From positions 57,290,001 through 57,354,000 of the forward strand of contig NC_086108.1 in NCBI RefSeq assembly GCF_963921235.1: DNA of 64,000 bases, read 5' to 3'. The notes under the pieces were generated by a model that saw only the letters and a list, made by a program, of their open reading frames with translations, did not search any database and had not been told where the DNA came from. The DNA is from Mobula hypostoma. Its lineage: Eukaryota. A program made the position numbers and the translations under genes. Shown piece after piece: positions 4,031 through 64,000 of the stretch (position 1 is its first letter; every line of letters starts with the position of its first letter).

Positions 4031-4323
4031 CTATTTTCAAATAATTTACTCAATGAACATTTGAATCGGCAGACCATGCTACATAGACAATTGAAAGCTG
4101 TCTTAGATAACACTGATATTTCCTGATTTCCTTTTGGCATTGCCTAAAGCTATCATGCTGGCAAATGGGTGTAGCACCAGAGTGAGTCATATCTCTGCCA
4201 TTCACATCAAGCAACATTAACATGTGCTTTTGGAGAAATTAGGGAGAAATTAGGGAAAAATAAACCCTGGAAAGCAATAAACCCCTCCAGCTTTCAAATC
4301 GCTTACTCACTCTTCCTTCAGTT

Positions 4324-4359
4324 AGTCCTGATGAAGGGTCTCGGCCTGAAACGTCGACT
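4324..4359 (+). ncRNA. Minimal type I hammerhead ribozyme motif (copy 1)
   Basis: AGTC-CTGATGA-AGGgtctcggCCT-GAAA-CG-TC-GACT: stem I AGTC/GACT, core CUGAUGA and GAAA, stem II AGG/CCT, palindromic ACGT in place of helix III, predicted cleavage after C4355. Confidence 0.75.
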
Positions 4360-4415
4360 GCGCCTCTTCCTATAGATGCTGCTTGGCCTGCTGCATTCAC
4401 CAGCAATTTTGATGT

Positions 4416-4985
4416 ATGTTGCTTGAATTTCCAGCATCTGCAGAATTCCTGTTGTTTGCGTTTAAATTCACTACTGCGAAGCCTCTTCCGGTGATGCCTA
4501 CACCGAAGAAGTTTAGATCCTCTCTTCGACGGGAGTTCAGTGAAACCATCTCTCACTGCTCCCCATCTGTAATTTCTTCGGCTCTTCAACTTTTCGACCA
4601 CACTTTGACTCAAACTCGCTATCACAGCCATATATCCTTTCTTGGAACGTGCCTCCGTCGCCAATTTACTCTAGTTGGCTTTAGGATTCGTTTCCAAGCC
4701 TCTCAATTTGGACCTTCTGAGGATCCCAGGTACTCACATTTTATTGGCTCTGCCTCTCGCCGCTTCTCCCGTCAAGCTCTGAAGGCGATGCTCTCCGCCA
4801 TGAGGAGGTACTTGGTGTCCCTATCCCAGGCCCTTCCACACCTTCGGGACACTTTCTTCGCCGTCTGTAATGGTCCTACCCGTTATTTCATCCCCTCCAG
4901 CTTTCAAATCCCTTACTTACTCTTCCTTCAGTTAGTCCTGACGAAGGGTCTCGGCCTGAAACGTCGACTGCGCCTCTTCCTATAG
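4416..4985 (+). CDS. Open ORF (189 aa; about 163 aa from ATG 4494) resembling the N-terminal domain of a Penelope-like element protein, truncated before RT
   Basis: RYHSHISFLGTCLRRQFTLVGFRI resembles the H-x-x-FL-x-x-C...GF motif of PLE ORF N-termini; directly follows the pLTR; no RT or GIY-YIG domain; the C-terminal end reads into pLTR copy 2. Expression not shown. Confidence 0.55.
   Translation: MLLEFPASAEFLLFAFKFTTAKPLPVMPTPKKFRSSLRREFSETISHCSPSVISSALQLFDHTLTQTRYHSHISFLGTCLRRQFTLVGFRIRFQASQFGPSEDPRYSHFIGSASRRFSRQALKAMLSAMRRYLVSLSQALPHLRDTFFAVCNGPTRYFIPSSFQIPYLLFLQLVLTKGLGLKRRLRLFL
4934..4969 (+). ncRNA. Minimal type I hammerhead ribozyme motif (copy 2)
   Basis: AGTC-CTGACGA-AGGgtctcggCCT-GAAA-CG-TC-GACT; predicted cleavage after C4965. 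Confidence 0.75.
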
Positions 4986-5529
4986 ATGCTGCTTGGCCTG
5001 CTGCGTTCACCAGCAACTTTGATGTATGTTCCTGGAAAGCAATAATTATTTACAACTACAACACCTTTGCATTTCAGGTAGCAATAATCATGCCTAAGGA
5101 CAACTATTTTGAGGATGACCACAAGAAACTGCAGAGATTTGTGGCCAGAGCTCAGTATATCACAGAAACCAACCTCCCCTTCATGGATTTCTTGGTGCCT
5201 CAGTAAAGCAGCTGGCATCAAAGACCTTACTAACCCCAGACGTTCTCTCTTCTCCCCCCTTCCTTCCAGCAGAAACCGCATCCCACCATCTCAAGGACAG
5301 CATTGGGTGGCACATGGGTTTGGGTGATCCAGATGAAGGGTCTTGGTCCGAAACATTGACTTACTACGTTGCCCGAGTTCCTCCAGCATTTTCCCGTGAG
5401 TTGCTCAGGGACAGTTTCTGCCCCCGTTGTTGTAAGACTACTGAATAATTTCCCAGTAGGTAAAAAAGACTCTTGACCTTACAATCTACTTCATTATGAT
5501 CTTGCACCTTATTGTATACCTGTGCTGCA

Positions 5530-6380
5530 CTTGACGTAGGTGCCTCAGACTGCTGAAGTGAGGGGTTAAAGATTTCAGTGAATTCTTCAGCCATTTGATC
5601 AGCACAGGTACCCAATATGGGCCAAATGGGTTCACCCTCCTGAAGGAAGGATACTCTCATGTCAGCCTCAGAGACTGAAATCACAGGGTTGTCAAGGGCT
5701 GTGGGAGTTTGTGAAGGTTCCTCCATGTCTTGATGGCCAAAGCAAGCATAGAATGCATTAAGCTCATCTGCGAGTGACGCCTCGATGTCACCTGTGTTGC
5801 TTAGTTTCACTTTGCCAAGCTTCTTTCAGTGATTCGAGTTTGATCCAGAGTTGCCACTTCTCACGTGAAACGGCTTTCCAGGGATCGAACCTGGATTTCT
5901 TGCGTCTTACTTGGTCACCAGACATGAATGCCACTAATCTGGCCCTCAGCAGATTGCAGGTCTCCTGTTTCATCTGGGGCTTCCGACTGGGGACATTCAA
6001 CCACAACCGTTTCCATAAAGTCCGTGACAGCCACTGGGATTCATTCAGATCCCCTGATCAGTCCTTGAACACAGCCCAGTCCACCTACCTGGAGCAATTG
6101 CAATCCCATAGATGCTCCTCTGCCTCCTGTGACTGGGCCTCGGCACGGAATGGTTGGCATTCCTAATCATAGTGTAGCAGTGATAATGTGCTGGGACCGC
6201 ACCCCCCTCCCCTCCCCTCCCCTCCCCACCCCCGGTGCTGCAGGTTATTTGTTGATGATAATTGAGCAGAGGTTTCTTCAAACAAGCCTGACTGAAGTCC
6301 CTCACTATGATATGACATGTGTTGGGGGTGGGCTGTTTCTTGTTTGGTGATGGCAGCATTATCTCGCATGCCTGATTAAA
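5530..6380 (-). mobile_element. Rex1/Babar-type LINE fragment (endonuclease end / EN-RT linker)
   Basis: ASLADELNAFYACF, CADQMAEEFTEIFNPSLQQSEAPT, IIVRDFSQACLKKPLLNYHQQITCST; short plus-strand Rex 3' pieces at about 5100-5515. Confidence 0.75.
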
Positions 6381-27388: not shown

Positions 27389-27487
27389 GTGCCCTCTGAT
27401 CCTAGACTCTCCCTCTATAAGAAACATCCTATTCACATCCATTCTATACCAGACTTTCAATATTTAACGAGATTTAACGATATTTAA

Positions 27488-28876
27488 AACCTCCCTCTGC
27501 AACTGGATCTTAGACTTCCTGACTGGGAGACCTCAGTCAGTCCGGATTGGAAGCAGCATCTCCAACGCCATCACACTGAGCAGGGGGGCCCTCCAGGGCT
27601 GTGTGCTCAGTCCACTGCTGTTCACTCTGCTGACCCACGACTGTGCAGCAATACACAGCTCGAATCACATCATCAAGTTTGCCGATGACATGACCATGGT
27701 GGGTCTCATCAGCAAGAACGACGAGTCAGCATACAGAGAGGAGATGCAGCGGCTAACGGACTGGTGCAGAACCAACAATCTGTCTCTGAATGTGAACAAA
27801 ACTAAAGAGATGGTTGCTGACTTCAGGAGGATACAGAGCGACCACACTCCACTGAACATAGAGATCGTTAAGAGCACCAAATGTCTTGGTGTCCACCTGG
27901 TGGAGAATCTCACCTGGTCCCTCAATACCAGCTCCATAGCAAAGAAAGCCCAGCAGCGTCTCTACTGTCTGTGAAGGCTGAGAAAAGTCAATCTCCCCCC
28001 CCCCCCCCACCTCACCACATTCTACAGAGGCTGTATTGAGAGCATCCTGAGCAGCTGCATCATGGCCTGGTTCAGAAATCGCACCATCTCAGATCGCAAG
28101 ACCCTGCAACGGATAGTGAGGTCAGCTGAGAAGATCATTGTGGTCTCCCTTCCCACCATCACAGACAATTACACCACACACTGCATCTGCAAAGCAAACA
28201 GCATTATGAAGGACCCCATGCACCCCTCATATAAATTCTTCTCCCTCCTGCCATCTGGAAAAAGGCACCAAAGCATTCAGGCTTTCACAACTAGACTATG
28301 TAATAGTTTCTTCCCCCAAGTCATCAGACTCCTCAATACCCAGAACCTGGCTTGACACCAACCTACTATACCCTCTACTGTGCCTACTGTCTTGTTTATT
28401 ATTTATTATTATTTAATGTAGTGCCTGCACTGTTTTGTTCACTTTATGCAGTCCTGGATAGGTCTGTAGTCTAGCGTAGTTTTTGTGTTTTTCGTATGTA
28501 GTTCAGTGTAGTTTTTGTATTGTTTCATTGATCCTGACCCGGATCTGGGCCATACCCTCCAAATATCCGGACCTGCCTCTCGGTTTTTTTGCACTACCTT
28601 ACTTTCCCTTTTCTATTTTCTATTTATGATATATAATTTAAATTTTTAATATTTACTATCGATTTGTACTCCAGGGAGCATGAAGAGCAGAATCAAATAT
28701 CGCTGTGATGATTGTACGCTCTAGTGTCAATTGTTTGGCGACAATAAAGTATAAAGTAAAGTAAAGTAAAGTAAAGCACCATGGTTCTGGAAAACGTTGT
28801 CTCATTTTTACTATGTTCTGTACCAGCAGTTATGGTTGAAATGACAATAAAAGTGACTTGACTTGACTTGACTTGA
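27488..28876 (+). mobile_element. 5'-truncated Rex1/Babar LINE with a nested 3' end of a second Rex family (about 28530-28775)
   Basis: [13 protein letters not shown]...[14 protein letters not shown]...[18 protein letters not shown]; (gactt)n tail; the nested piece ends in (aaagt)n and matches the 3' UTR of the 59312-62975 element. Confidence 0.85.
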
Positions 28877-30646: not shown

Positions 30647-30780
30647 CACAGAATGCTGGAAGAACTCAGCAGGCCAGGCAGCATCCATGGAAAAAAGTAC
30701 AGTTGACGTTTCAGGCTAAGACCCTCCAGCATTTTGTGTGTGTTGGCTGAATTTCCAACATTTGCAGATTTTTTCTTGTT
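30647..30780. mobile_element. Penelope-like pLTR fragment, inverted pair, 15-bp TSD
   Basis: Minus-oriented then plus-oriented pLTR pieces; TSD tgtaatactgataca at 30632-30646 and 30781-30795. Confidence 0.8.
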
Positions 30781-32900
30781 TGTAATACTGATACATCTGA
30801 TTTTAACTTCTTCCTTTTAAACTGCAGGGTAAATTCTATCATATTATGATCACTGGCTCCAAAGAGCTCTTTTACCTTAAGCTCCCTAAACAAATTTGGT
30901 TCACTACATAATACACAATCCAGAATTTCCATTTCCCTAGTGGGCTCAACCACTCAAGCGGCTCTAAAAAGCTATCCTGTGGCTTTCTACAAGTTCCTTC
31001 TCTTGGGATCCAGCACCAATCTGATTGAAATCCCACACGACTAACGTAACATTGCCCTTCTTACGTGTCTTTTCTATCTCCTATTGTAATTCACCCCCCA
31101 CATCCGGGTTACTGTTCAGAGGCCTGTTTTTAACTCCCGGAGGGGATCAGCGAGTGCTCCCAACAGAGGCCAGACTGTCAGTTATCACTGTCAATGGAGG
31201 CCATCAAGGAGCATGCAGAGGGGGGTGGGGTGGGGGAGTCAGCGATCGCTCCTAACAGAGGTTACCAGGTCAGCAGCCTGGTTGGTGACATTCGGACCAG
31301 GCATGAGTTATGAGTCATGGAAAGGCTATTTGATGTTCTGAAATTTATGTCATTATTGGACTGTACTTTATATTGGTCTCTTTCGGGTATTTTTTTGGTG
31401 GTTTCTTTCTTGTGACTGGTGGGTGGGTAATCTGTTAGTTCTTTGTGCGTAAGAGAGGGGGTTGGGTGTTTTGATTCTACTGTCACTGAACTTTTCTGCA
31501 AGTGAAGTGGTCGAGGATTGTTATTGTCACCGTTTTTCTCCGTTCAGGGTTTTTGGGGTTTGCAGGTTTTGTTTCTTTTTCTTTTTTGTGTGGGGGAGGG
31601 AGTTGATGACTTTTCTTTCATCAACACCTAACTGGTATGTGGCACAGGCAGCAATCCTGAGGTCCTGCTTTTCAGCTTTCTACCTAGCTCTCTTCAGGAC
31701 CTCATCCCTTTTTCTGCTTATGTCATTAGTATCAATACGTACCATGACTTTCAGCTGTTCACCCTCCCTCTTTAGAATGCAGTAGACTCATTTTGAAACA
31801 TCTCTGACCCAGGCACCTGGGAGGCAACATACCATCGGGGTGTCACTTTCACATTCACAGAATCTCCTGTCTGCTCCTCTTACTAAGGAATCCCCTATCA
31901 CCATTGTACTCCTCTACTTCCCCCTTTCCTTCCAACCCCCAGAGCCAGACTCAGTGTCAGAGACCCAGTAGCTTTCCCCTGGTAGATCGTTCCCCCTCCC
32001 AGCATCCATAGTGGTATACTTATCGTTGAGGAGAATAGCCACAGCGGGACTCTGCACTGGCTGCCGATTTTCTTTCTCTTTTCTGACAGTCACCCAGCCA
32101 CCTGCCTCTTACAACTTAGGGGTGACTGCCTCTCTGTAGCTCCTATCTATCATCTCCTTATTTTTCCTGTTTGAGCTGGGGATCAGCCATCTGCACAAAC
32201 TAACATGGTTTGTAAGCAGCTGCAGCTGGGTGCAGCTCACGTAGACGTTGTCATCTGGAGGTCTTCCGGAGTTCCCAAGTCTCACACAAAGAATGTACCA
32301 TTGACCCCGGACCCATTCTCACCACATTCACTTATTCTGGTCATAGCTGTAAAGGCTGTGGACTCCTTACATGTGTATCGGTGTCTGGCCCAATCAGTAT
32401 CCTCTTGTCTCTTCATAGCTTGTGGGTCCAGGTGAATAGAAAAGATCCAGTGGAAGGATTTTGAAAACAAGTCCTAGGTATCCAGGCCAATTTATAAAAT
32501 CAATAAACATCAAAAAACCATGTTAGGTACTCTCATGTTGGTGTTTGTGAAAAATTGCTATGGACGAAGTGATTCCCACATTCCATATACTCCAACAATA
32601 TCTTCACTTATAGAAGGATGGGGAGTAACATTCTGCATTCTACAGATGCTATAAGCATGTACTGGTGATACCCAGTTCCTGTTTCTTAATTTACTTAAAG
32701 GTGAATGATGCTGGAGATGGAGATAAATTTCAGTCAAAATCTGAGAGTGATTTTTCTGTGTTTCAGACATCTAAAATATTTTAAAATGCTGTAAATAATT
32801 ATGAAAATATTTCAATATGTATTAAAATTAAAATAAAGGCATACTAAAGCACAGAGCAATGATTAAAATTTTGATATGAATAATAAAAAAAAGTCCTTAC

Positions 32901-33167: not shown

Positions 33168-34155
33168 CCTCAGCGATTCCTACTTCACGCTCTTTCACCT
33201 CAGTAGTGTTCTGAACAATGGGGCATTGGTTTGACTTGACCCATAATTTTTAATTCAATTTCAAGGTAATTATTACATTCAGTCACATTTTATCTGAATT
33301 AAGAAATCTATTCACAAGTATAACGCAACAGGGGAGCTTTTCCAGCAGTAAGGTAGCTAAATGAGGCCATAGGAGTGCCTGGAATGTAGCAATGCAAGTA
33401 ATATTGATTGCTGTTGACAGCAATGTTTTCATGTGGCAACGTCCCTTGGCACCAGCTGTGAGAGATAGGGGTGTAGTTGAGTAAAAAAAATCCTCTGAAA
33501 CTCACACCATTCAATGGATTATTCCCTAGTTTCCCTGCTCTGGGTAAAGAAACTTCTTTTAGTACTTGCTAATTTAGTAAAGGTGATGCAGGAATTCTGT
33601 TTTCTGTGAATGCCCAAGGGGGACATGGTACACAGAATAACTAAGCACAACATAGTTAACTAGAGTCTTGAAAAGAACAGAGAACTACCATGGGCTTTTA
33701 ACCCTTTGTTAGGATTTCAGATTCTTCATACCAGACATTTATTGTTTGAGTGGACTCCATTCTCCGAATTGTAGATCACCGGCAAACTTTGTAATCATTT
33801 GTGCTTAACTCCTTCTGGTTTAGAAATAAATGGGTAGAGTCAGAATTATAGAAAAGTACAGCACAGAAACAAGCTCCTTGGCCCATCTAGTCTGTGCCAA
33901 ATCATTTAAGCTGCCTAGCTCCATTGATGTGCACCTGGACAATAGCCATCCATATACCTCCCATCTATCTACCTATCCAAATTTCTCTTCAACATTGAAA
34001 TCGAGTTGCATGCACCACTTGTGCTGACAGCTCGTTCCACACTCTCATGACCCCGAGTGCAGAAATTTCCCCTTGTATTCCCCTTATCCTTTTCACCTCT
34101 CACCTTTAACCCATGACCTCTAGTTGTAGTCCCACCTAACCTCAGTGGAAAAAGC

Positions 34156-34332
34156 ATCTATAGAAAGAGGTGCAGTCGACGTTTCAGGCCGAGACCCTTC
34201 GTCAGGACGAAGGGTCTCGGCCTGAAACGTCGACTGCACCTCTTTCTATAGATGCTGCTTGGCCTGCTGCATTCACCAGCAACTTTGATGTATGTTGCTT
34301 GAATTTCTAGCATCTGCAGAATTCCTGTTGCT
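34156..34332. mobile_element. Penelope-like pLTR inverted insertion with perfect hairpin, 15-bp TSD
   Basis: TSD ctcagtggaaaaagc at 34141-34155 and 34333-34347; 51-bp perfect inverted repeat; hammerhead core intact on the minus strand only. Confidence 0.85.
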
Positions 34333-36267
34333 CTCAGTGGAAAAAGCCTGTTTCTGTTTACCCTATCTATACCCATCATAATTTTGTATACCTCCAACAA
34401 ATTTCCCCTCAATCTTTTAAGTTCCAAGGAATAAAGTCCCAACTTATTCAAACTTTCCTTATAATTCAGTTCCTCCGGTTCTGGCAACATCCTTGTAAAT
34501 TTTCTGAGTACTCTTTCAACCTTTGTTTACATCTTTCCTGTAGGTATGTGACCAAAACTGCACACAACACTCCAAATTAGGGCTCACCAATGTCTTGTAC
34601 AACTTCAACATAGCATTCCATCTCCTCTATTCAATGCTTTGATTTATGAAGGCCAATGTGCCAAAAGCTTTCTTTATGACTCAGTCTACATGTGCCACCA
34701 CTTTCAATAAATTATGGACCTGTATTCCTAGATCCCTCTGAACTACTGCACTCCTCAGTGCCCTACCATTCACAGTGTAAGACCTACCCTGGTTGGTCTT
34801 ACCAAAGTGCAACACCTTGCACTTGTCTACATTAAATTCCATCTGCCATTTTTCACCCCATTTTTCCAGCTAGTCTAGTTCCCGCTGCAAACTCTGATAG
34901 TCTTCCTCATTGTTCACTACTTCTCCAATCTTGGTGTCATCTGCAAATTTGCTGATCCAGTCAACCACATTATCATAACGATCATTGATATAGATTACAA
35001 ACAACAACGGACCCAACACCGATCCTTGTGGCACGCCACTCGTCACAGGCCTCCAGTCAGAGGGTCAATTATCTAATACCACTCTCTGCCTTCTCCCACA
35101 AAGCCAATGTCTAATCCAATTTACTACCTCATCTTGAATGCCAAGTGACTGAACCTTCCTGACCAGCCTCCCATGCTGGAGGCTGGTCAAGTGCCTTACT
35201 ATAGCCCATGTAGGCAACATCCACTGCCACTCCTTCATCAACTTTCCTGGTAAATTCATCAAAAAAACTCATAACCTACCACGCACGAAGCCATGCTGAC
35301 TATCTTAATTGGTCCATGTCTATCCAAATATATCCAGTCCCTTAGAATACCTTCCAATAACTTTCCTCCTAATGATGTCAGGCTTATCAGCCTATAATTT
35401 CCTGGTTATTTTTACACCCTTTCCTAAACAGCGGAACAACATTAGCTATTCTCCAATGCTCCGGTACCTCAACTGTCTCTGAGGATGATTTAACTCTCTC
35501 TGCTAGGGCCCCTGCAATTTCTGCATTTGCCTCCCACAGGGTCTGAGGGATTACCTTGTCAGGCCCTGAGAATTTATCTACTCTAATTTGCCTCAAGACA
35601 GCAAACATCTCCTCCCCGTAATTTGTACAGGGTCCATGACCTCACTGCTGCTTTGTGTCACTTCTGTAGACTCCGTGTCCATTGCCCAAGTAAATACAGA
35701 TGCAAAAAACCCCTTTTAAGATCTTCCTATCTCTTTTGGCTCCACACATAGATTACCATTCTGATCTTCCAGAGGACCAATTTTGTCCCTTGCAATCCTT
35801 TTGCTCTTAACTTATCTGTAGAATCTCTTGGGATTCTCCTTCAACTTGTTTGCTAGGGCAATCTCATGTCTTCTTTTAGCTCTCCTGCTTTTTTTCTTAA
35901 GTGTTCTCTTGCATTTCTTTATACTCCATAAGTATCTCTTTGTTCCTACCTGCCTATACCTGCTACATACCTCCCTAATTTCCTCAACCAGGGCCTCAAT
36001 AGCTCTTGAAAACCAAGGTTCCCTAAACCTGCATTCTTTATATTTTATTCTGACAGGCGCATACAAGCTTTGTACTCTCAAAATTTCACTTCTGAAGGCT
36101 TTCCACTTATCTAGTACACCTCTGTCTTCGCCAGACAACAGCCTGACCCAATCCACGCTTACCAGATAATTTCTGATACGATCAAAATTGGCCTTTCCAC
36201 AATTTAGTATCTCAGCCCATGGACCAGACCCATCCTTTTCCATATTTACTTTGAAACTAATGACATT

Positions 36268-38637
36268 TTTTGCGCTATATATTGAACCGCTTGCCCAACT
36301 AATAAGACAGAGCGAAATCGTAAAAGGTATCAAGCTGGCAGGGATTGAACAGAAAGTGGCGTTATTTGCAGATGATGTTTTAGTCTATCTGAGTGAACCA
36401 GAAAAATCATTTATAGGATTGTTTACACTGTTGGATGACTTTGGGAAAATATCAGGTTATAAAATAAATGTAAAGAAAACGCAGGTTATGTCCCTAAATT
36501 ATACACCATACAAAAAACTGCAGGATACATATGATCTTAAGTGGGAAGCTAAATCATTAAAATATTTAGGAATAACCCTGCCGAAGGATCTTTCAACGCT
36601 GTCACAGGTAAATTATGGGCCATTAATCTCAGAGATAAAAGCAGATATGCATAGATGGAATCTTATCCCCTTTTTAAGTTTAAATTCAAGGATAAATACT
36701 ATAAAAATGAATATTCTCCCTCAGTTACTGTATTTTTTCCGGACTTTACCCGTGGAGGTGGATGATAATCAATTCAGGGAATGGGACAAATGGATTTCCC
36801 GCTTTATCTGGCAAGGAAAGAAACCTAGAGTTTGATATAACACCTTACAGTTAGGGAAGGAAGGAGGAGGTATGGTTCTTCCTTGCTTGAGAAATTATTT
36901 TTATGCTTCACAGATAACCCCTCTGTTATATTGGTGTAATAGGGACTATAAGGCTAGATGGAAGGAAATAGAATTTGGATTGGTTGACAGTTTTCCTCTA
37001 CAGACCTCAATAGCTTGATGGCCCAATTGGAAAAGTTTAAAAACAATTGGATAAATCTTACATTAAAAGTATGACAGAAGGTGGTTAATTCATGTGGAAT
37101 CAATAACATGTTAAAACTTTTCAGATGGTGTGCATATGATACCGAATTCCTTCCCAACAGAGGAGATAAAAGATTTGAACTATGGATAAAGAAAGGTCTT
37201 ACAACCTACCTCCCATTTATACATAAAAGAGTATTACAAAGTTTCCAATTCCTGCAGGACAAACATGGCCTAGAATACAATAACTTTTTTTAGGTACCTT
37301 CAAGTACGACACTATGTTAACCAGAGTTGTAGATATACAGACCTATCAACAGTAGAATTAGAATTTTTGAAGATTCTGAATTCGGCTTGCAGTTCAATAT
37401 CTAGTAAATCAGTTTCTCAATTATATAATGCACTCTCCCATGCTAAAAATGTAAACACATTGTATATTAAAGAGAAGTGGGAGAAAGAAGCGGGGTTGGT
37501 ACTTTCAGAGGAGGCTTGGGGGAAAATATGCAGCTTTCAGTGGTCTTCGACTAATTCTTTGACTTGGAGAGAACATTGTTGGAAAAATATTATAAGATAC
37601 TTCAAGACCCCATATCAGGAAAAATATAAAGACACAAACGTGACGTGTTGTAGAAGGTGCGGCTCCAAGGAGGCAAATCATTTCCATATTTTCTGGGATT
37701 GTCCTAAATTAAATTTATATTGGAAAGGTATTCATAGAACATTAGTTAAGGTACTTAAGACCCAGATACCTCTGAACTTTGAGACGCTCTATTTGGGGCA
37801 TGTATTGTTTCTTGAACAGAAGAAAGATATAAAGTTGCTGCGGGCCCTTTTAGCGGCAAGTAAGAAATCAATCACTAGAAAGTGGCTAAATCCAATGCCA
37901 CCTACATTAGAAGATTGGCACAAAATTATCTTGGAAATATTTAAAATGGAAAAGATACTTACTCCCTGAGAATTCAAGAAGAAAAATTTTTATCAAATCT
38001 GGAATAAATGGATTGCATATATAACCCCAAAGCAAGCAGACTTTAGATGAATCTCCTAATGATTTATACTGTTCTTCTCATCAACACAGTAATATTGCTA
38101 ACGTAAGCACCCCTGGTCTAAATGTTTACTGTTTTTGGTTTTTTTTGGAAAATAGAGAATTAACACAAGTAAAGGAAAAGATTTGGGAAAGGGATAAAAA
38201 AAATGATAAAATTAAGTAAATAAGTACATAGGGATTGGATAATTATGTTTGGGGGCAGGAGTAAGCATGAACAAGTTAGGATATAAACACCTACAATGGT
38301 TGTTACATAGGCTTACATACAACATTTTGGACCAGTAGAAATGGTCCAGAAGAGATATATGGAAATTATTATTAATCCACTATTATTACTACTTTTCTTA
38401 ACAATAACAACTAATATCATTACTTAGCCTAATAGATTAGAATTTCAACTGTACATAATTATCTATTTAAGTGTCTAATTTCTTTTCATATCATCTTAAT
38501 GTGTACTTAGGAATGTATAAATAATTATAGTTTTATACATATAAAAAAAAGGAAAAGGTTATACATGTGAAAAAAGTACATGATACTTGTGAATTCCTTA
38601 TCCAAAAAAAAATGAAAAATTCAAAAAAAAAAGAAGG
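36268..38637 (+). mobile_element. 5'-truncated L1-clade LINE (ORF2 RT C-half, zinc knuckle, 3' UTR, A-tail)
   Basis: FALYIEPLAQLIR...KVALFADDVLVYL...SGYKINVKKT...KYLGI; CRRCGSKEANHFHIFWDCPKL; A-rich tail; TSD aactaatgacatt at 36255-36267 and 38638-38650; premature stops. Confidence 0.9.
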
Positions 38638-42690: not shown

Positions 42691-44127
42691 ATTCTGTGAT
42701 AAAACCTGGGATGATGAAATTGTTAAAAGGGCAGCTTGCAGAAGTTTGGGTTTTCCTTGAGAATAAAGAAAAAACATCTTGTTGTTATTCACTCATAACT
42801 AGATGGTCAGATTTATCTAAAATACCGTTAGGATTTGCAATATGCTGCCCCTTAGGATAGTGGACACAGATTCAATGGAAGTCTTCAAATGAAAAAAGGT
42901 TAAAGGAGAAAATAGTTGCTGGAACACGAGGAAAGATCAAAGGTTGGAGCTGACCACACTTCAAAAGATCATGTACAGTATTAAGAGGTCAAATGGTTTT
43001 GATTAAGCTCTGTTTTTGAACATAGAGTTCATGTCCTATCATCCTGTCTTTTTGTGAGCCTTTTCCAGTGAATAAATCAATACCGCACGATATAAAAACA
43101 GAAAATGTCCATTTGGTGAGATGTTCCTGTGAAGAGAGAAAGTGAGAAAGGAAACAAGTTTTAAGTTGCAGTGAAAATGGGAAGAGAGAGAGAGAGCTAA
43201 TAGCTATGTTTGGCAACATGGGCAAGAAGTGATCGATGATGAGAACCTAGTGGAAGACTGGTGGTGTTGCTAACTGAAAGAGGTGTATTCAGGAGAAGAC
43301 AAATGTGAAATACCAGAAGAGGAGAGAATAAATTTAAACACTGACCTTGTGAGGTTAGGGAAATCCTAGGTTCAAGGCTGAATTAATTGATTATGAATGT
43401 AGAAATTTTTAAAAAATAAATTAATTTAATTCTGTTTAATATTGGAGGAATGAAACATTGTAGTTTATCTGATTTGCTCTTATAACTGTCAGATCTCATC
43501 AGACAAAAAAAATCTGAACTCTCAGGAGATAGTTATTGTTCTTCAAATATGATTGCAGATTTTACATTGTATTGAAGTGCAGAGAGATGGAAACAGTTGC
43601 TTGGAATATACTATGTCTTCTGAAATACAAAAATGGTAAGCATTGAGTCAAGTTGAATTTGTGGTCATGTGCTCAAGAATGTTGAGGTGCAGGTGCAATG
43701 AAAAACTTGCGTGCAGCAACATCACAGGCATGTAGGTATTAATTTTTTAAAAAAGCAAGATAACCAAGGTTTTTGCCTGTACCTTGAAAAACAGTTGAAC
43801 ATTGACCTCAGTTGACATTAAAGTGACATCTTCACAATAGCAGCTGATTGAACATCATGTCGGGGTGGGGTGGGGAAGTGTGCTGCACCTATACTTGAAG
43901 GGAAAACATAACAAAAAAAAGAACAAAGAGGGAAGATCTGTGATAAAGTGGAAGTCAGGAAAGATAAAATGACAAAAGCAGATGATAGTGCAAGGTAGCA
44001 TAGGTTGGAAGGGGAAACATCACAGAAAAATCTGTTTCCTTTGGAGGAGAGAAACTTGCAGACAGCTGAAATTAAAGAAAAGTAATATAAATTAAAATGA
44101 GAAATAAACAATATGTTTCATCAGTAA

Positions 44128-44311
44128 ACATGAGGAAATCTGCAGGTGCTGGAATTTCAAGCAATACACATAAAAGTTGCTGGTGAATGCAGCAGGCCAG
44201 GCAGCATCTCTAGGAAGAGGTCCTGACGAAGGGTCTCGGCCCGAAATGTCGACTGTACCTCTTCCGAGAGATGCTGCCTGGCCTGCTGCGTTCACCAGCA
44301 ACTTTTATGTG
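44128..44311. mobile_element. Penelope-like pLTR inverted insertion, 14-bp TSD
   Basis: TSD tgtttcatcagtaa at 44114-44127 and 44312-44325; plus-strand motif CTGACGA(44223-44229)...GAAATGTC (ACGT palindrome changed to ATGT). Confidence 0.85.
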
Positions 44312-45129
44312 TGTTTCATCAGTAAGTTTAGATACTAATTGTTTCTTTTTAGCTCTTGCCTCTCATCCCCTCACTCCAGCACAATTTCTGTTTATCTCTA
44401 ACTGCACGGTTCTGATGGAAGGACATCAATTTGAAACATTAACTTTGTTTTCCTTCCAAAGTTGCTTCTGAACTTGTCAAATTTCTCAAGCATTTCCCAC
44501 TATTAATCCAGGTTTCTGGGGTTTGAGACAATGGGAACAATGGGGCTATGTAGTGGGGAAGTTACACAGAGAGATTTTGGATAATAATACAATTAATAAA
44601 CTCAGAAACTAGAGAGCAAGGTGAATTATGAGTGAGGTTTAAATCTCTGAGAGTAGGAACAGATAGGAAAGTGAAGAGAACCCAATTAAAATTTTTATAT
44701 GTTAATGGATAGGTCATAGAAATGAGGAATTTAAATGGAAGGCTGGAGATGTGGCATAAGATCAGACACTCAATGTCACCAAAAATTTTAGAGAAGTAGG
44801 GGTGATTTATTAAAAAGAATGTATTAATATTGTTAGACAATCACCTTTGTATTTGTGTTTGTATATAGGCTAAGGTTAAGTATTAGTAATGATATAGGCA
44901 CTTTGCTGTTCATTGTTTGACTTCCTGTTTCAAATCACTCCATTGCACAATTTATTGGTCAGCAATTTGCGAGCTGATACTGGTGAGAAAAGTGACATTC
45001 ATTAATCATAAAAGGGAAGGGAGGCTCCTTTCCCAGCAATTTGTCTGGTCTAGGTGCAGCTACTGTATGGAGTTCGTGCAGTACAGTGGTGTAGAGATAA
45101 AAGACTAGCCTTGATCCACTGAACGGTGG

Positions 45130-59311: not shown

Positions 59312-62300
59312 TTCATACTTTATTGTCGCCGAACAATTGGTACTAGAACGTAAAATCATCACAGCAATATTTGATTCTGCGCTTCACACTCCCTGGATTA
59401 CAAATATTAAATATTAACAATATTAAAAATAATAAAAATTAGTAAATATTAAAATTTTAAATTATAAATCATAAATAGAAAATAGAAAAATGGAAAGTAA
59501 GGTAGTGCAAAAAAAAACGGAGAGGCAGGTCCGGATATTCGGAGGGTATGACCCAGATCCAGGTCAGGATCCATTCAGCAGTCTTATCACAGTTGGAAAG
59601 AAGCTGTTCCCAAATCTGGCCATACGAGTCTTCAAGCTCCTGAGCCTTCTCCCGGAGGGAAGAGGGATGAAAAGTGTGTTGGCTGGGTGGGTCGTGTCCT
59701 TGATTATCCTGGTAGCACTGCTCCGACAGCGTGCGGTGTAAAGTGAGTCCACGGATGGAAGATTGGTTTGTGTGATGTGCTGCGCCATGTTCACGATCTT
59801 CTGCAGCTTCTTTCTGTCTTGGACAGGACAACTTCCATACCAGGTTGTGATGCACCCTAGAAGAATGCTTTCTATGGTATATCTATAAAAATTAGTGAGG
59901 GTTTTAGGGGACAGGCCAAATTTCTTTGGTTTCTCAGGAAGTAAAGGCGCTGGTGGGCCTTCTTGGCAGTGAACTCTGCTTGGTTGGACCAAGTCAGGTC
60001 ATTTGTAATATTGACCCCAAGGAACTTAAAGATTTTGACCTGTTCCACTTGCGCACCACTGTTGTAAATTGGGTCATGTGGTCCACTACTCCTTCTGAAG
60101 TCAACAACCAATTCCTTCGTCTTGCTGACATTGAGGGATAGGTTATTGTCTTCGCACCGTGCCACCAGGTTCTTAATTTCCTCTGTACTCAAGCTCATCA
60201 TTATTCGAGATACGACCTACAATTGTGGTGTCATCGGCAAACTTATATATTGAGTTTGATGGAAACTTGGCTACACAATCATGGGTGTACAGAGAGTACA
60301 GCAGGGGGCTGAGTACACAGCCTTGTGGGACAGCGGTTCTCAGAGTGATTGTAGAGGAGAGCTTGTCCCCTATTTTTACAGCATGTTTGTGAGGAAGTTG
60401 AAGATCCAGCTGCAGATCTGAGTGCTAAGGCCCAGGTTCCGGAGCTTAGGAATCAGTTTATTTGGAATAATGGTATTAAAAGCAGAGCTGTAGTCAATGA
60501 AAAGGAGCCTTACGTATGCATCCTTATTCTCCAGGTGTTCTAAGGAGGAATGTAGGGCCAGAGGGATGGCATCTGACGTTGACCTGTTGCTCCGGTAGGC
60601 GAATTGCAAAGCGTCGAGGTTGACCGGTAGGCTGTGGTTGATGTGTGCCATAACCAATCTCTCGAAGCACTTCATAGCAATTGATGTCAGAGCCACAGGT
60701 CGATAGTCATTCAGGCGTGCCATCTTGCTCTTCTTCAGCACTGGGATTATCGTTGCTGTCTTAAAACACGAGGGGATCTTAGACTGAAGCAAGGAGCAGT
60801 TGAAGATGCCAGCAAACACTCCAGCTAGCTTGCTTGCACAGGCCCGAAGAACCCGTCCTGGGACGTCATCTGGGCCCGTTGCCTTCCTTGGATTTATCTT
60901 CAGGAAGGCCCTTCTAACGTCCTCCTCGGTGACGATGAATCTCAATGCCACCAGGTCCGGGTCATCCGGAGGGAGCGGGACGCTCCTCTTCTGTTCGAAT
61001 CTTGCGTAGAATACGTTAAGTTCGTCAGGAAGAGAAGCGCCACAGTTATTGATATTCCCAGCCTTTTCCTTGCGCCCAGTGATCTCATTTAGACCCTGCC
61101 ATAGTCTACTGGCATCCCTTTGGTTAGCCTGGGCTTTCATCTTGGCTCGATATTGCCTCTTGGCACCCTTAATGGGCTTCCGGAGTTCATGCCTGGATTC
61201 CGTGTAGCCACCTGTATCCCCGGACCTAAAAGCCATAGCTCTAGCCTTTAAAAGGGACTTGACCTCATAATTCATCCAAGTCTCCTGACATGTTTACCCC
61301 TCACACCCTGTCTACTGAGCAGCCTTTGGGGCGGTGAATCAGGGTGGTGATTCACCTGATATAGAGTGGTGAGACACACCCAGAGCCCAGTGCCAGGATC
61401 CAAGCCTGGACTGTGTGGAGCAGACCAGACAACTATGGATATGACAGTAATGCACTCCTAGGGTAAATTGGGAAAGCGTGATTAACTCTGGAAAATTCAC
61501 TCTGATGTCTCCAGCCGCAGTGCACGCAGGTTCAAAACACGTGTGGTGACAATGGTCAGCGGAGAAAGATATTGGCTTATTGTGGGCAAATGGGATTAGT
61601 GCAGATGGCAAAAGGCTTGGCATGGATTTGGTGGGCCGAGTGGCCTGTTACTTTGCTGTACAACTTTGAGAGTCTGACCACAGTACACCGACCAAAAACA
61701 TGATTGTACCAGAGTTGTAACACAAACAGGTGTTGCAATGGTGGAGGGGCAGTACTGACAGGAACAGTGTGGATCCAAAATAACATCTCCTTGCTAACAA
61801 TCTCCACTCTCACACCTCAAGGTTGCGTGTTTATGCTCATGAGTGTGCAGTTAGGCACAGCTCAAATGCCATTTATAAATTGAATGATGACACCACTGTT
61901 GTGGGTAAAATTTCAGATGATGATGAGGAGGCGTACAGGCGCAGGATAGGTTGGCTGGGTGAGTGGTGCTGCAACAACAAGATCGCACTCAACGTCAGTA
62001 AGACCAATAATTGATTTGGGGACTTCAGGAAAGATATATCAGGAGCACGCATAACTGTCCTCATCGAGGGATCAGCAGTGGTAAGGGTGAGCAGTTTCAG
62101 GTTCCTGTGTGTCAACATCTCTGAAGATCTATCCTGCGCCCAACATATTGGTGTAAAGACGAAAAAGACCTCCAGAGGCTATATTTCATTAGGAGGAGAT
62201 TTGGTATGTCATCAAAAACTCTGGCTAATTTCTACAGATGTACTGTGGAGAGCATTCTGACTGGTGTGGAGGATCAGAAAAAAACTGCAGAGGGTTGTAA

Positions 62301-62975
62301 ACTCAGTCAGCTCCTTCATGGGCACTAGCCTCCTCACCACTGCGGATACAACAGGGTCTTTTAAGAGCCTCTTGGATAGGTACATGGAGCTTAGAAAGAT
62401 AGAGGGCAATGCACTAGGGAAATTCTAGGCAGTCTCTAGAGTAGGTTACATGGTCAGCACAACATTGTGGGCCGAAGGGCCTGTAATGTGCTGTAGATGT
62501 CTATGTTCTATGTTCTACATGTTTCTGGTTAGGGAATACCCAGATCGTCTTGCGAGACACACAGTCCTCCGTGCATTTCCAAATAAAGTCCATGACAGCT
62601 GAGGCATACTCATCGAGGTTAGCTGCCGAGTCCTTGAATACTAACCAGTCCACTGATTCAAAACAGTTATGGAAGACCTCATTCGTTTCCTCCATCCAAT
62701 ACGACACTACTTTTGACACCGTGACCTCCTGCTTCAGTTTCTGTTTGTAAGCTGGGAGGAGGAGTACGGCCTGATGGTCCGATTTTCCGAAGTGAGGTCG
62801 TGGGACGGAACAGTAGGCATCCTTGACTGCTGTGTAGCAGTGGTCAAGTATATTCGGCCCTCTAGTGGGGCAGGAGACATGTTGGTATAACTTTGGCAGC
62901 GCCTTTCTGAGGTTGGCCTGGTTAAAGTCCCAGGCTGTAATGTGCAAAGCCTCTGGATACCTGGTCTCAAGTTCA
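59312..62975 (-). mobile_element. Rex1/Babar LINE (element B), 5'-truncated, interrupted at 61281-62520
   Basis: EN end ILDHCYT...FGKSDHQAVLL (62521-62975); 299-aa ORF with NDYRPVALTSIAMKCFERLV, LQFAYRSNRST, LLFIDYSSAFNTI; C-terminus FGNSFFPTVIRLLN. Confidence 0.9.
61281..62520 (+). other. 1,240-bp composite insertion (unassigned DNA, old CR1 tail, Rex fragment, young CR1 3' end)
   Basis: Removing it rejoins the Rex ORF as ...PNQK-PWMNYEV with no base lost or duplicated; ends in CR1 tail ctatgttctatgttctacat. Confidence 0.75.
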
Positions 62976-64000
62976 CCGGCATGTGACATGAAATTTGTTA
63001 ACTTAGCAGCAGCAGTTCAATGCAATACATAATCTAGCAGAGAGAAAAAAATAAAATGATAATAAATAAAATAGTAATAAATAAAAATAATCAATAAACC
63101 AGTAAATCAGTTATGTATATTGTATAGATTAAAAAAGAGTGCAAAAACAGAAATACTGTATATTAAAAAAAAGTGAGGTAGTGTCCAAAGATTCAATGTC
63201 CATTTAGGAATTGGATGGCGGAGGGCAAGAAGCTGTTACTGAATCGCCAAGTGTGTGCCTTCAGGCTTCTGTATCTCCTACCTGATGGTAACAGTGAGAA
63301 AAAGGCATGACCTGGATGCTGGAGGTCCTTAATAATGGACGCTGCCTTTCTGCGACACCGCTCCCTAAAGGTGTTCTGTAGGCTAGTACCTGCTGGAGGA
63401 AGTCACAGAGAAGGGTACAATTACAACGTTGAAAATACATTTGGAAAGGTTCATGGATGGGAAAAGTAAAGAGTGACATGGGCCAAAAGACCTATTTTCT
63501 ATGCAGTATAATGCAGTATAACTCTAGGACTTTGCATACCTGAAGGTCAGTTGTTTTGATAATAATGATCTCAAACAGAGGGACCTCACATTGACATCAT
63601 TTTCATGAAAAAAGTACTGAAATACTGAACTCCAAATTATAAGAGTATAAGAGCCCTGAACATAAGTCAGACAAACGTCAGGAGACTTTGACCAACCTTA
63701 TCACAGAGCCATAAATGATGAATGAAATAAGAAAAAGTCAAAAGGAAAGATTATGTAGTCCTGTGCAGGTTGACTTAGAAATTGCTTAACATAAGGACAA
63801 AATACACTTGTTGTACATAACAGTAGCTAAATTGTAACAACTAATTTTTATATAATTATTATAATCAAACTTATTTTAGAACCATTTTTGAGAGTGTAAT
63901 AGTTTTGTTGATTATTGGTACTGTATTAACATTTATTTGCGATTTTATAAAATGTAATTTCCCTCTAACAGTGATTATATTTCAGGTACTCCATTGTCCA

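What the first reader, a model, noticed from the sequence alone, without database searches (positions are those of the whole stretch)
4281..5030. Double-hammerhead, ORF-carrying Penelope derivative: a candidate protein-coding retrozyme / circular RNA unit
Seen: a 750-bp insertion with a 15-bp TSD; two hammerhead motifs with intact cores in the same orientation exactly 610 nt apart (predicted cuts after C4355 and C4965); each replaces helix III by the palindrome ACGT; between them an uninterrupted ORF resembling the PLE N-terminal domain, with no RT or GIY-YIG. Established: Penelope-like pLTRs carry minimal type I hammerheads thought to cleave as dimers, and non-coding retrozymes use tandem hammerheads to release RNAs that circularise. 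Inference: the two copies could pair via ACGT, excise a 610-nt RNA (4356-4965) and circularise it. On that circle the ORF would still be complete, crossing the junction to the TAG equivalent to 4373-4375. This would be a retrozyme-like element that keeps a coding PLE N-domain, mobilised in trans. It could equally be a one-off abortive PLE insertion.
Basis: partly seen in the sequence, partly recalled or inferred. Interest (0 to 1): 0.8.

Follow-up and report, generated by a model that had tools for sequence, protein, structure and literature searches.

The report
Gutted Penelope insertion with two hammerheads
This 750-base insertion holds two copies of the known minimal hammerhead motif of a very abundant Penelope-like jumping gene, around the cut-off start of that gene's protein, and is most likely a dead one-off copying accident rather than a protein-coding circular RNA element.

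Summary
In detail: a 15-bp TSD, two intact minimal hammerhead cores 610 nt apart, and an open frame. A related organism holds the empty site. The ORF is codons 1-133 of a Neptune-type Penelope-like element (PLE) protein. It is cut inside its conserved N-terminal domain, joined at a 2-nt microhomology to a second pseudo-LTR, and ends in 30 pLTR-derived codons.

The coding-retrozyme reading is not supported:
- The element's 5' end coincides (0-2 nt) with its internal junction, 75 nt upstream of the first cut site. A circular template gives this by chance ≤0.5% of the time.
- All 5 rare ORF changes are non-synonymous, one at a proline kept in 13 of 14 aligned sequences.
- Three of those alleles sit near single-copy depth.
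- Contigs of two probable RNA runs carry only the parent family's alleles there.
- Many other low-depth joints of this type exist.

Likely origin: one copying event with internal priming and a template jump. The junction's copy number could not be counted (no genome held), so a small family stays possible. The scan noted similar gutted copies elsewhere in this genome.

The parts
4266..4280 (+). Left target-site duplication (15 bp)
   Evidence: Identical to 5031-5045; one copy only at the empty site in organism B (record 17)
4281..4281 (+). Single A, probably untemplated, at the 5' junction
   Evidence: In neither the TSD nor the family's native upstream pyrimidine run seen as loose ends before 4282/4892 (table 7); inference
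4282..4420 (+). 5' pseudo-LTR copy (X)
   Evidence: 139-nt direct repeat with 4892-5030, 5 mismatches
4324..4359 (+). Minimal type I hammerhead motif 1; predicted cut after C4355
   Evidence: Core consensus; helix I 4324-27/4356-59; helix II 4336-39/4344-47 with unpaired 5' A; ACGU 4351-54; matches the description in PMC4209133
4421..4458 (+). Family 'tail' of about 37 nt between the two common 3' ends (likely the two RT start sites)
   Evidence: Window copies of the family end at family position 4420 or 4454-4458; loose ends pile up at 5030 and 4455-4462; cf. PMC11167929
4494..4893 (+). Codons 1-133 of a Neptune-type PLE ORF (helical N-terminal domain), truncated
   Evidence: 72% identity over 89 aa to a Hypanus sabinus protein that continues past this point; E 2e-15 to a full-length RT + GIY-YIG protein; conserved IHxLN segment missing
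4892..4893 (+). Internal junction, 2-nt CC microhomology between the ORF piece and the second pLTR
   Evidence: Native continuation after 4893 and native sequence before 4892 seen as loose ends (tables 7 and 8)
4892..5030 (+). 3' pseudo-LTR copy (X'), ending at the family's usual 3' end; supplies 30 read-through codons to TAG 4983-4985
4934..4969 (+). Minimal type I hammerhead motif 2; predicted cut after C4965
5031..5045 (+). Right target-site duplication (15 bp)

Best explanation
The insertion is a partial-tandem copy of an abundant Neptune-type Penelope-like retrotransposon, most likely made in one copying event with a template jump and likely dead on arrival. Shown: the TSD and empty site, the family's usual 3' end at 5030, the native sequence on both sides of the junction, the 2-nt microhomology, and the coincidence of the 5' end with the junction. 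Inferred steps: (1) The RT/endonuclease of an intact family member nicked the target and primed at the family's internal start site, 65 nt downstream of the hammerhead cut site. (2) It copied about 139 nt back to the C-run at 4282/4892, likely the 5' end of an uncut linear RNA. (3) It jumped through CC onto an RNA end or break at 4893, inside the ORF. (4) It copied the ORF start and the upstream pLTR back to the same 5' end, added one A and joined the target. Two hammerheads and an open frame then follow automatically, because any pLTR-ORF start-pLTR piece of a young family carries them. The RNA could in principle cleave weakly as a dimer, but nothing here suggests that this cleavage or the protein is used.
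For: Empty site in organism B with about 2 substitutions and one 11-nt indel in ~320 nt of flank, so the insertion is young. It carries 4613A, an allele at 30% of family depth in organism A and 0% in B. The 3' end matches family position 4420, shared with 2 other window copies. The 5' end and junction fall within 0-2 nt of the same base; the chance on a 610-nt circle is 0.16-0.5%. The template reached 75 nt upstream of cut site 1. Among the 15 joints shown (200 more cut) are joints from 4434-4548 to 4904-5009 at summed depths of 12-317, the same kind of structure at many positions. At 4665, 4672 and 4747 the locus allele has summed depth 0, 26 and 20 in run X1, against 4-10 for the unique flank contigs and 45,000-72,000 for the family. 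All 5 rare ORF changes are non-synonymous: P 0.13 if neutral, 0.002 at dN/dS 0.2; for the 4 strictly rare ones, 0.19 and 0.0065. One replaces a proline kept in 13 of 14 aligned sequences. An ORF this young stays open by chance 76-86% of the time. In an anole PLE, RT starts internally at two sites, hammerhead mutants insert normally, and no RNA-seq ends map to the cut site (PMC11167929). Microhomology-deleted PLE copies are described (PMC3846280).
Against: The junction's copy number was not counted: no genome is held, the read tables were cut, and only contigs were available. Siblings that share the junction but not the later point changes would be invisible to the allele test. Allele 4830G is at 0.5% of family depth in X1 (380, about ten times the level at 4672 and 4747), which could mark a small sub-lineage. 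The two pLTR copies differ at 5 of 139 sites, more than the 0.9-1.3 expected from the flanks (P 0.002-0.011; 0.06-0.14 without two CpG changes), so two templates or an older source may be involved. That 4282 is an RNA 5' end is inferred: 7 of the 8 other forward-arm matches in the window start at 4322-4329 and none at 4282. A pyrimidine-run stall site would weaken the coincidence argument.
Confidence: 0.72

Rival explanations
1. A small non-autonomous mini-PLE family (pLTR - ORF start - pLTR), copied in trans from a linear transcript that starts at 4282. The ORF piece is a passenger or part of the RNA's protein-binding site, not a selected protein.
For: This also explains the 5' end/junction coincidence, by inheritance from a master copy. 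4830G is shared at 0.5% of family depth. In the anole PLE the RNA needs the first 172 nt of the ORF (PMC11167929). Putative non-autonomous PLEs are reported in Chlamydomonas (PMC8557442).
Against: Three other locus alleles are near single-copy depth. No junction-spanning piece is among those listed, though that table was cut. Joints of this kind are scattered over many positions.
Confidence: 0.16
2. A longer or full-length PLE inserted here and later lost RT and endonuclease by a microhomology-mediated DNA deletion.
For: 2-nt microhomology at the junction. Such deletions are described in Adineta PLEs (PMC3846280). pLTR copies that differ at 5 sites are tolerated by this model.
Against: The deletion would have to end within 2 nt of the base where the element's own 5' end lies. 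The insertion is young, leaving little time.
Confidence: 0.07
3. A functional protein-coding retrozyme: the two hammerheads cleave as a dimer, the 610-nt RNA circularises, is translated across the junction and is reinserted by the PLE RT.
For: Both cores are intact and the double-hammerhead fold is topologically possible. The frame closes on the circle. A 1.23-unit insertion resembles more-than-unit copying of a circle, as proposed for PLEs in PMC4209133. The 610-mer folds better than shuffles (z -2.7, 20 shuffles). Animal retrozyme units of 51-972 bp derive from PLE pLTRs (bioRxiv 2026.07.22.740005).
Against: Copying would have to stop by chance at the junction (≤0.5%). One pass round a circle gives identical repeats, but these differ at 5 of 139 sites. 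The domain is truncated and its rare changes are all non-synonymous. At five diagnostic sites all laid depth in both probable RNA runs carries the family allele. The dimer fold costs about 31 kcal/mol over the minimum-energy fold, in a model without tertiary contacts or protein. Minimal hammerheads cleave poorly even as dimers (PMC4209133), and 8 of 9 Xenopus dimers did not cleave.
Confidence: 0.05

Closest known systems
EN+ Penelope-like elements of Neptune/Nematis type and their partial-tandem insertions (Craig et al. 2021, PMC8557442; Schostak et al. 2008, PMC2377424; Arkhipova et al. 2013, PMC3846280; passages read)
   Same: Direct pLTRs with a hammerhead, ORF starting just after the pLTR, two 3' ends about 37 nt apart in the family, TSD. 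Full-length homologues have RT, a CX4CxxC linker and GIY-YIG.
   Different: RT and endonuclease are absent. The downstream unit is the short one, and the upstream unit ends inside the ORF. The 5' end and junction coincide.
[quoted passage not shown]
   Same: Type I core, 4-bp helix I, unpaired base 5' of helix II, no helix III in the monomer, predicted dimer; reported in fish Neptune, Poseidon and Xena elements.
   Different: Here the two same-strand copies are 610 nt apart, not about 3 kb. Activity is untested.
Animal non-LTR retrozymes (Cervera and De la Pena 2020, PMC7229834, passages; Li, Clavereau and Pollet 2026, bioRxiv 10.64898/2026.07.22.740005, parts 1-3 of 5 read)
   Same: PLE-derived, same-strand type I hammerheads one unit apart, unit length within the reported 51-972 bp, large TSD.
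   Different: Only 1.23 units. Minimal rather than canonical hammerhead. Retains coding sequence. No evidence of amplification, or of RNA from this locus.
Poseidon element of Anolis carolinensis, in vitro mechanism (Frangieh et al. 2024, PMC11167929; parts 1-3 of 4 read)
   Same: Hammerhead ending GAAACGUC, and RT starts at two internal sites downstream of it that define the tail; long helical N-terminal region.
   Different: A different clade. The template jump inferred here was not shown in that work.

Membership tests
Penelope-like element derivative (Neptune/Nematis type) | ORF homologous to the N-terminus of PLE RT-GIY-YIG proteins | tested here: met
   A profile of 14 sequences finds 3 full-length proteins (E 6e-63 to 3e-45) with RVT_1 and GIY-YIG; direct BLASTP E 2e-15
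Penelope-like element derivative (Neptune/Nematis type) | pLTRs with hammerhead, 30-40-bp optional tail, TSD | tested here: met
Penelope-like element derivative (Neptune/Nematis type) | CX2-5CxxC linker before GIY-YIG | tested here: inconclusive
   Present in 3 of 3 distant full-length homologues; the parent family's own C-terminal half was not retrieved, and no tree was built
Autonomous PLE | Encodes RT and GIY-YIG endonuclease | tested here: not met
   The ORF stops at 190 codons, with 0 Pfam families; native continuation is lost after 4893
Minimal PLE hammerhead | Conserved core, helix I and II, palindrome in place of helix III | tested here: met
   against the description
Minimal PLE hammerhead | Self-cleavage, as a dimer or with protein help | not testable with these tools
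   Only contigs were available; table 6 lists no pile-ups of ends, but contigs cannot show RNA ends
Non-LTR retrozyme | At least two consecutive complete units, each with a hammerhead | tested here: not met
   750/610 = 1.23 units; two hammerheads are present. TRF could not test this, as its longest period is 500
Non-LTR retrozyme | Amplified as a family | tested here: inconclusive
   Three locus alleles near single-copy depth, one at 0.5% of family depth; junction not counted
Non-LTR retrozyme | Abundant linear and circular monomer RNA | tested here: inconclusive
   Contigs of 2 probable RNA runs carry family alleles at 5 of 5 diagnostic sites; contigs drop rare variants and cannot show circles
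Non-LTR retrozyme | Non-coding | tested here: not met
   Keeps 133 codons of PLE ORF in an open frame; no sign of selection on them

The most novel reading that the evidence does not exclude
The 610-nt unit is the founder or a member of a young family of protein-coding retrozymes: dimeric hammerheads release a circle that makes a truncated helical PLE N-terminal domain, which could pair with the full-length PLE protein and damp or hijack it. A milder and likelier novelty (about 0.45) is that the coinciding 5' end and junction record a strong-stop-and-jump step, showing how PLE pseudo-LTRs are regenerated from a linear RNA.
Probability: 0.05. Interest if true: 0.75.

Novelty: new member of a known kind. 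Interest (0 to 1): 0.2.

Why it matters
As a single locus it matters little: it is one of many broken copies of a very abundant retrotransposon. If the coding-circle reading were true, it would be a protein-coding animal retrozyme and a link between PLEs and retrozymes. The papers read describe retrozymes as non-coding, and six searches (listings only, except the papers named) showed no title or abstract opening that describes a coding one. The more realistic value is mechanistic. How PLEs regenerate pLTRs is stated to be unexplained (PMC2377424), with hammerhead-made circles (PMC4209133) and uncut linear RNA (PMC11167929) as candidates. Mini-elements like this one tell the two apart: circles predict 5' ends independent of the junction, while linear RNA with a jump predicts coincidence. 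This genome appears to hold enough such joints to count.

Tried and rejected
- Whole-genome BLAST of the junction: impossible, no genome is held.
- Junction as an exact 23-nt pattern in metagenome contigs: 0 hits. This is uninformative for a fish.
- Protein-based locus search in metagenomes: 1 weak locus with no DNA likeness, discarded as chance.
- Pfam: 0 families for the ORF, for the Hypanus protein, and for 12 of 12 further homologues scanned, of the 48 found.
- Near-length protein search: 0 of 110 candidates. This is no evidence that a stand-alone form is absent.
- Rfam: no hammerhead model reached.
- AlphaFold model (pLDDT 89.7, four helices) gave no PDB match at E ≤0.001.
- Sequencing runs: no holder on record as RNA; X9 and X10 are only guessed to be RNA. 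All four runs laid (of 24 listed) were contigs, so level, strand, ends and circles could not be read. Lack of a listed junction-spanning contig is not evidence, as the tables were cut.
- Summed contig depth is not a copy number; it is used only to compare alleles at one site and against the unique flank contigs.
- The first forced-fold run used a shifted helix II register (31.6 kcal/mol); the corrected run gave 31.0.
- 4613A was first counted as locus-specific and then dropped: it is a subfamily allele (30% in X1).
- One flank mismatch counted is an alignment effect of the 11-nt indel; both values are given.
- Sequence and relative look-ups in the scan's notes returned nothing.
- Supplements of the papers were not read; those of the 2026 preprint (family consensus tables, including one cartilaginous fish) may bear on whether such units are already catalogued.

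Full report
Observation. The described features are present. A perfect 15-bp duplication flanks 4281-5030. Inside lies a 139-nt direct repeat, 4282-4420 and 4892-5030, with period 610 and 5 mismatches. Each copy holds an intact hammerhead core with a 4-bp helix I, a 4-bp helix II after an unpaired A, and ACGU where helix III would be. This is the minimal hammerhead described in the pLTRs of metazoan Penelope-like elements (PMC4209133, passages and section 5). No genome is held for this window, so copy number was approached through public runs.

Family. The pLTR is a very common repeat. A 219-nt query matches eight other places in this 64-kb window; four of the six checked have their own 14-15-bp TSD, and three carry an inverted arm. 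Their 3' ends fall at family position 4420 (2 copies) or 4454-4458, about 37 nt apart. This matches the two internal RT start sites that define the PLE tail in an anole element (PMC11167929, parts 1-3 of 4). The insertion ends at the first of these positions, 65 nt past the second cut site. The host is probably a ray: the only named protein hit is from Hypanus sabinus, 72% identical over 89 residues.

The ORF. Codons 1-133 from the ATG at 4494 are the start of the PLE protein. There are 48 homologues at E ≤0.001, and a profile of 14 sequences retrieves 3 full-length proteins with RT and GIY-YIG, each with the CX4CxxC linker of Neptune/Nematis type (PMC8557442, passages). The domain is predicted to be all-helical. 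It is cut short: homologues continue with a conserved IHxLN segment, and contigs from both organisms run on natively after 4893. The last 30 codons come from the pLTR; such a stretch is open by chance 24% of the time. Six sites differ from the family majority. One (4613) is a synonymous subfamily allele, at 30% of depth in organism A and 0% in B. The other five are rare and all non-synonymous, one at a proline kept in 13 of 14 aligned sequences. This fits neutrality (P 0.13) better than purifying selection (P 0.002 at dN/dS 0.2), and an ORF this young stays open 76-86% of the time. The open frame reflects youth, not function.

Age and copy number. In a DNA run of organism B one 579-nt contig joins the left flank to a single TSD copy and the right flank (record 17), with about two substitutions and one 11-nt indel. 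The insertion is therefore recent, or still polymorphic. In the DNA run of organism A the locus alleles at 4665, 4672 and 4747 have summed depth 0, 26 and 20, against 10.4 and 4.4 for the unique flank contigs and 45,000-72,000 for the family. Against this, 4830G reaches 380 (0.5%), and siblings lacking the later mutations would not be seen, so a small family is not excluded. Among 15 joints shown (200 more cut), most link a point at 4434-4548 to a point at 4904-5009 at low depth: short pLTR-ORF start-pLTR tandems form at many positions, and this one is a longer example. Two earlier AI notes on this genome describe comparable 330-nt and 460-nt cases; I did not check them.

RNA. Two runs guessed to be RNA hold contigs over the ORF start. 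At five of five diagnostic sites all their laid depth carries the family allele, and one contig continues natively past 4893. What is seen belongs to other copies. Contigs drop rare variants and cannot show ends or circles, so silence of this locus is not proven.

Mechanism. The most telling feature is geometric. The native sequence upstream of the pLTR is a pyrimidine run (table 7). The element's 5' end, after one extra A, and its internal junction both fall in the same C-run within 0-2 nt, and the junction has a 2-nt CC microhomology. On a hammerhead-ligated 610-nt circle the RT would have no reason to stop there (0.16-0.5% by chance). On a linear RNA whose 5' end lies at 4282, 75 nt upstream of the first cut site and so uncut, it follows directly: prime internally, run off the 5' end, jump to an RNA end at 4893, run to the same 5' end again. 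The jump and the RNA 5' end are inferred, not shown; 7 of 8 other window matches start at 4322-4329. The five differences between the repeats exceed the flank-based expectation and mildly favour two templates or an older source over one pass round a circle. Published work points the same way: hammerhead mutants of the anole PLE insert normally and no RNA-seq ends map to the cut site; minimal hammerheads cleave weakly as dimers; 8 of 9 Xenopus dimers did not cleave.

Comparison. It works like, and derives from, an EN+ PLE partial tandem. It is not an autonomous PLE. It resembles a non-LTR retrozyme in having two same-strand hammerheads one unit apart, and such elements are now argued to derive from PLE pLTRs. 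It fails the two-full-units criterion (1.23 units), and amplification and circular RNA are unshown, so I do not file it as one.

Verdict. A real, correctly described feature with an ordinary cause: one-off by-product 0.72, small passive family 0.16, later DNA deletion 0.07, functional coding retrozyme 0.05. Interest 0.2. The reusable point is the 5'-end/junction coincidence as a genome-wide test of how pLTRs arise.

Noticed in passing
window 34153-34330, 44126-44315, 30654-30782: Short family copies with a 5' inverted arm and their own TSD. In the 44 kb copy the inverted arm reaches the tail end (family 4457) while the direct arm ends at 4420, the classic PLE tail asymmetry.
   Followed up: partly
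window-wide; family positions 4322-4329: 7 of 8 other forward-arm matches start at the 5' edge of hammerhead helix I, and loose ends pile up at 4324 in three runs. This may be a preferred truncation or RNA start point, or partly subfamily divergence.
   Followed up: partly
window 4310-4338 and 4920-4948: The pyrimidine tract upstream of each hammerhead is predicted to pair with the catalytic core, an alternative hairpin that would keep the ribozyme off (HH1 in the whole-transcript fold, HH2 in the centroid).
   Followed up: no
window 4957 (helix II): The common family variant T>C (23-32% of depth in the DNA runs) turns a G-U pair of helix II into G-C, consistent with the helix being maintained.
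   Followed up: no
window 4232-4261: An 11-nt tandem repeat just left of the TSD has one more unit than at the empty site in organism B.
   Followed up: yes
window 5328-5361: An older, diverged pLTR copy with a broken hammerhead core, about 300 nt downstream and unrelated to the insertion.
   Followed up: partly
window 4613: A synonymous allele marks a PLE subfamily at 30% of depth in organism A and 0% in B, and at 90% and 42% in the two probable RNA runs, suggesting a recent, possibly still transcribed expansion in A.
   Followed up: partly
window 5364-5825 (-), 27468-27974 (+), 36170-37969 (+), 60376-63016 (-): ORF pieces that look by eye like LINE reverse transcriptase or endonuclease fragments; labels recalled, not tested.
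   Followed up: no
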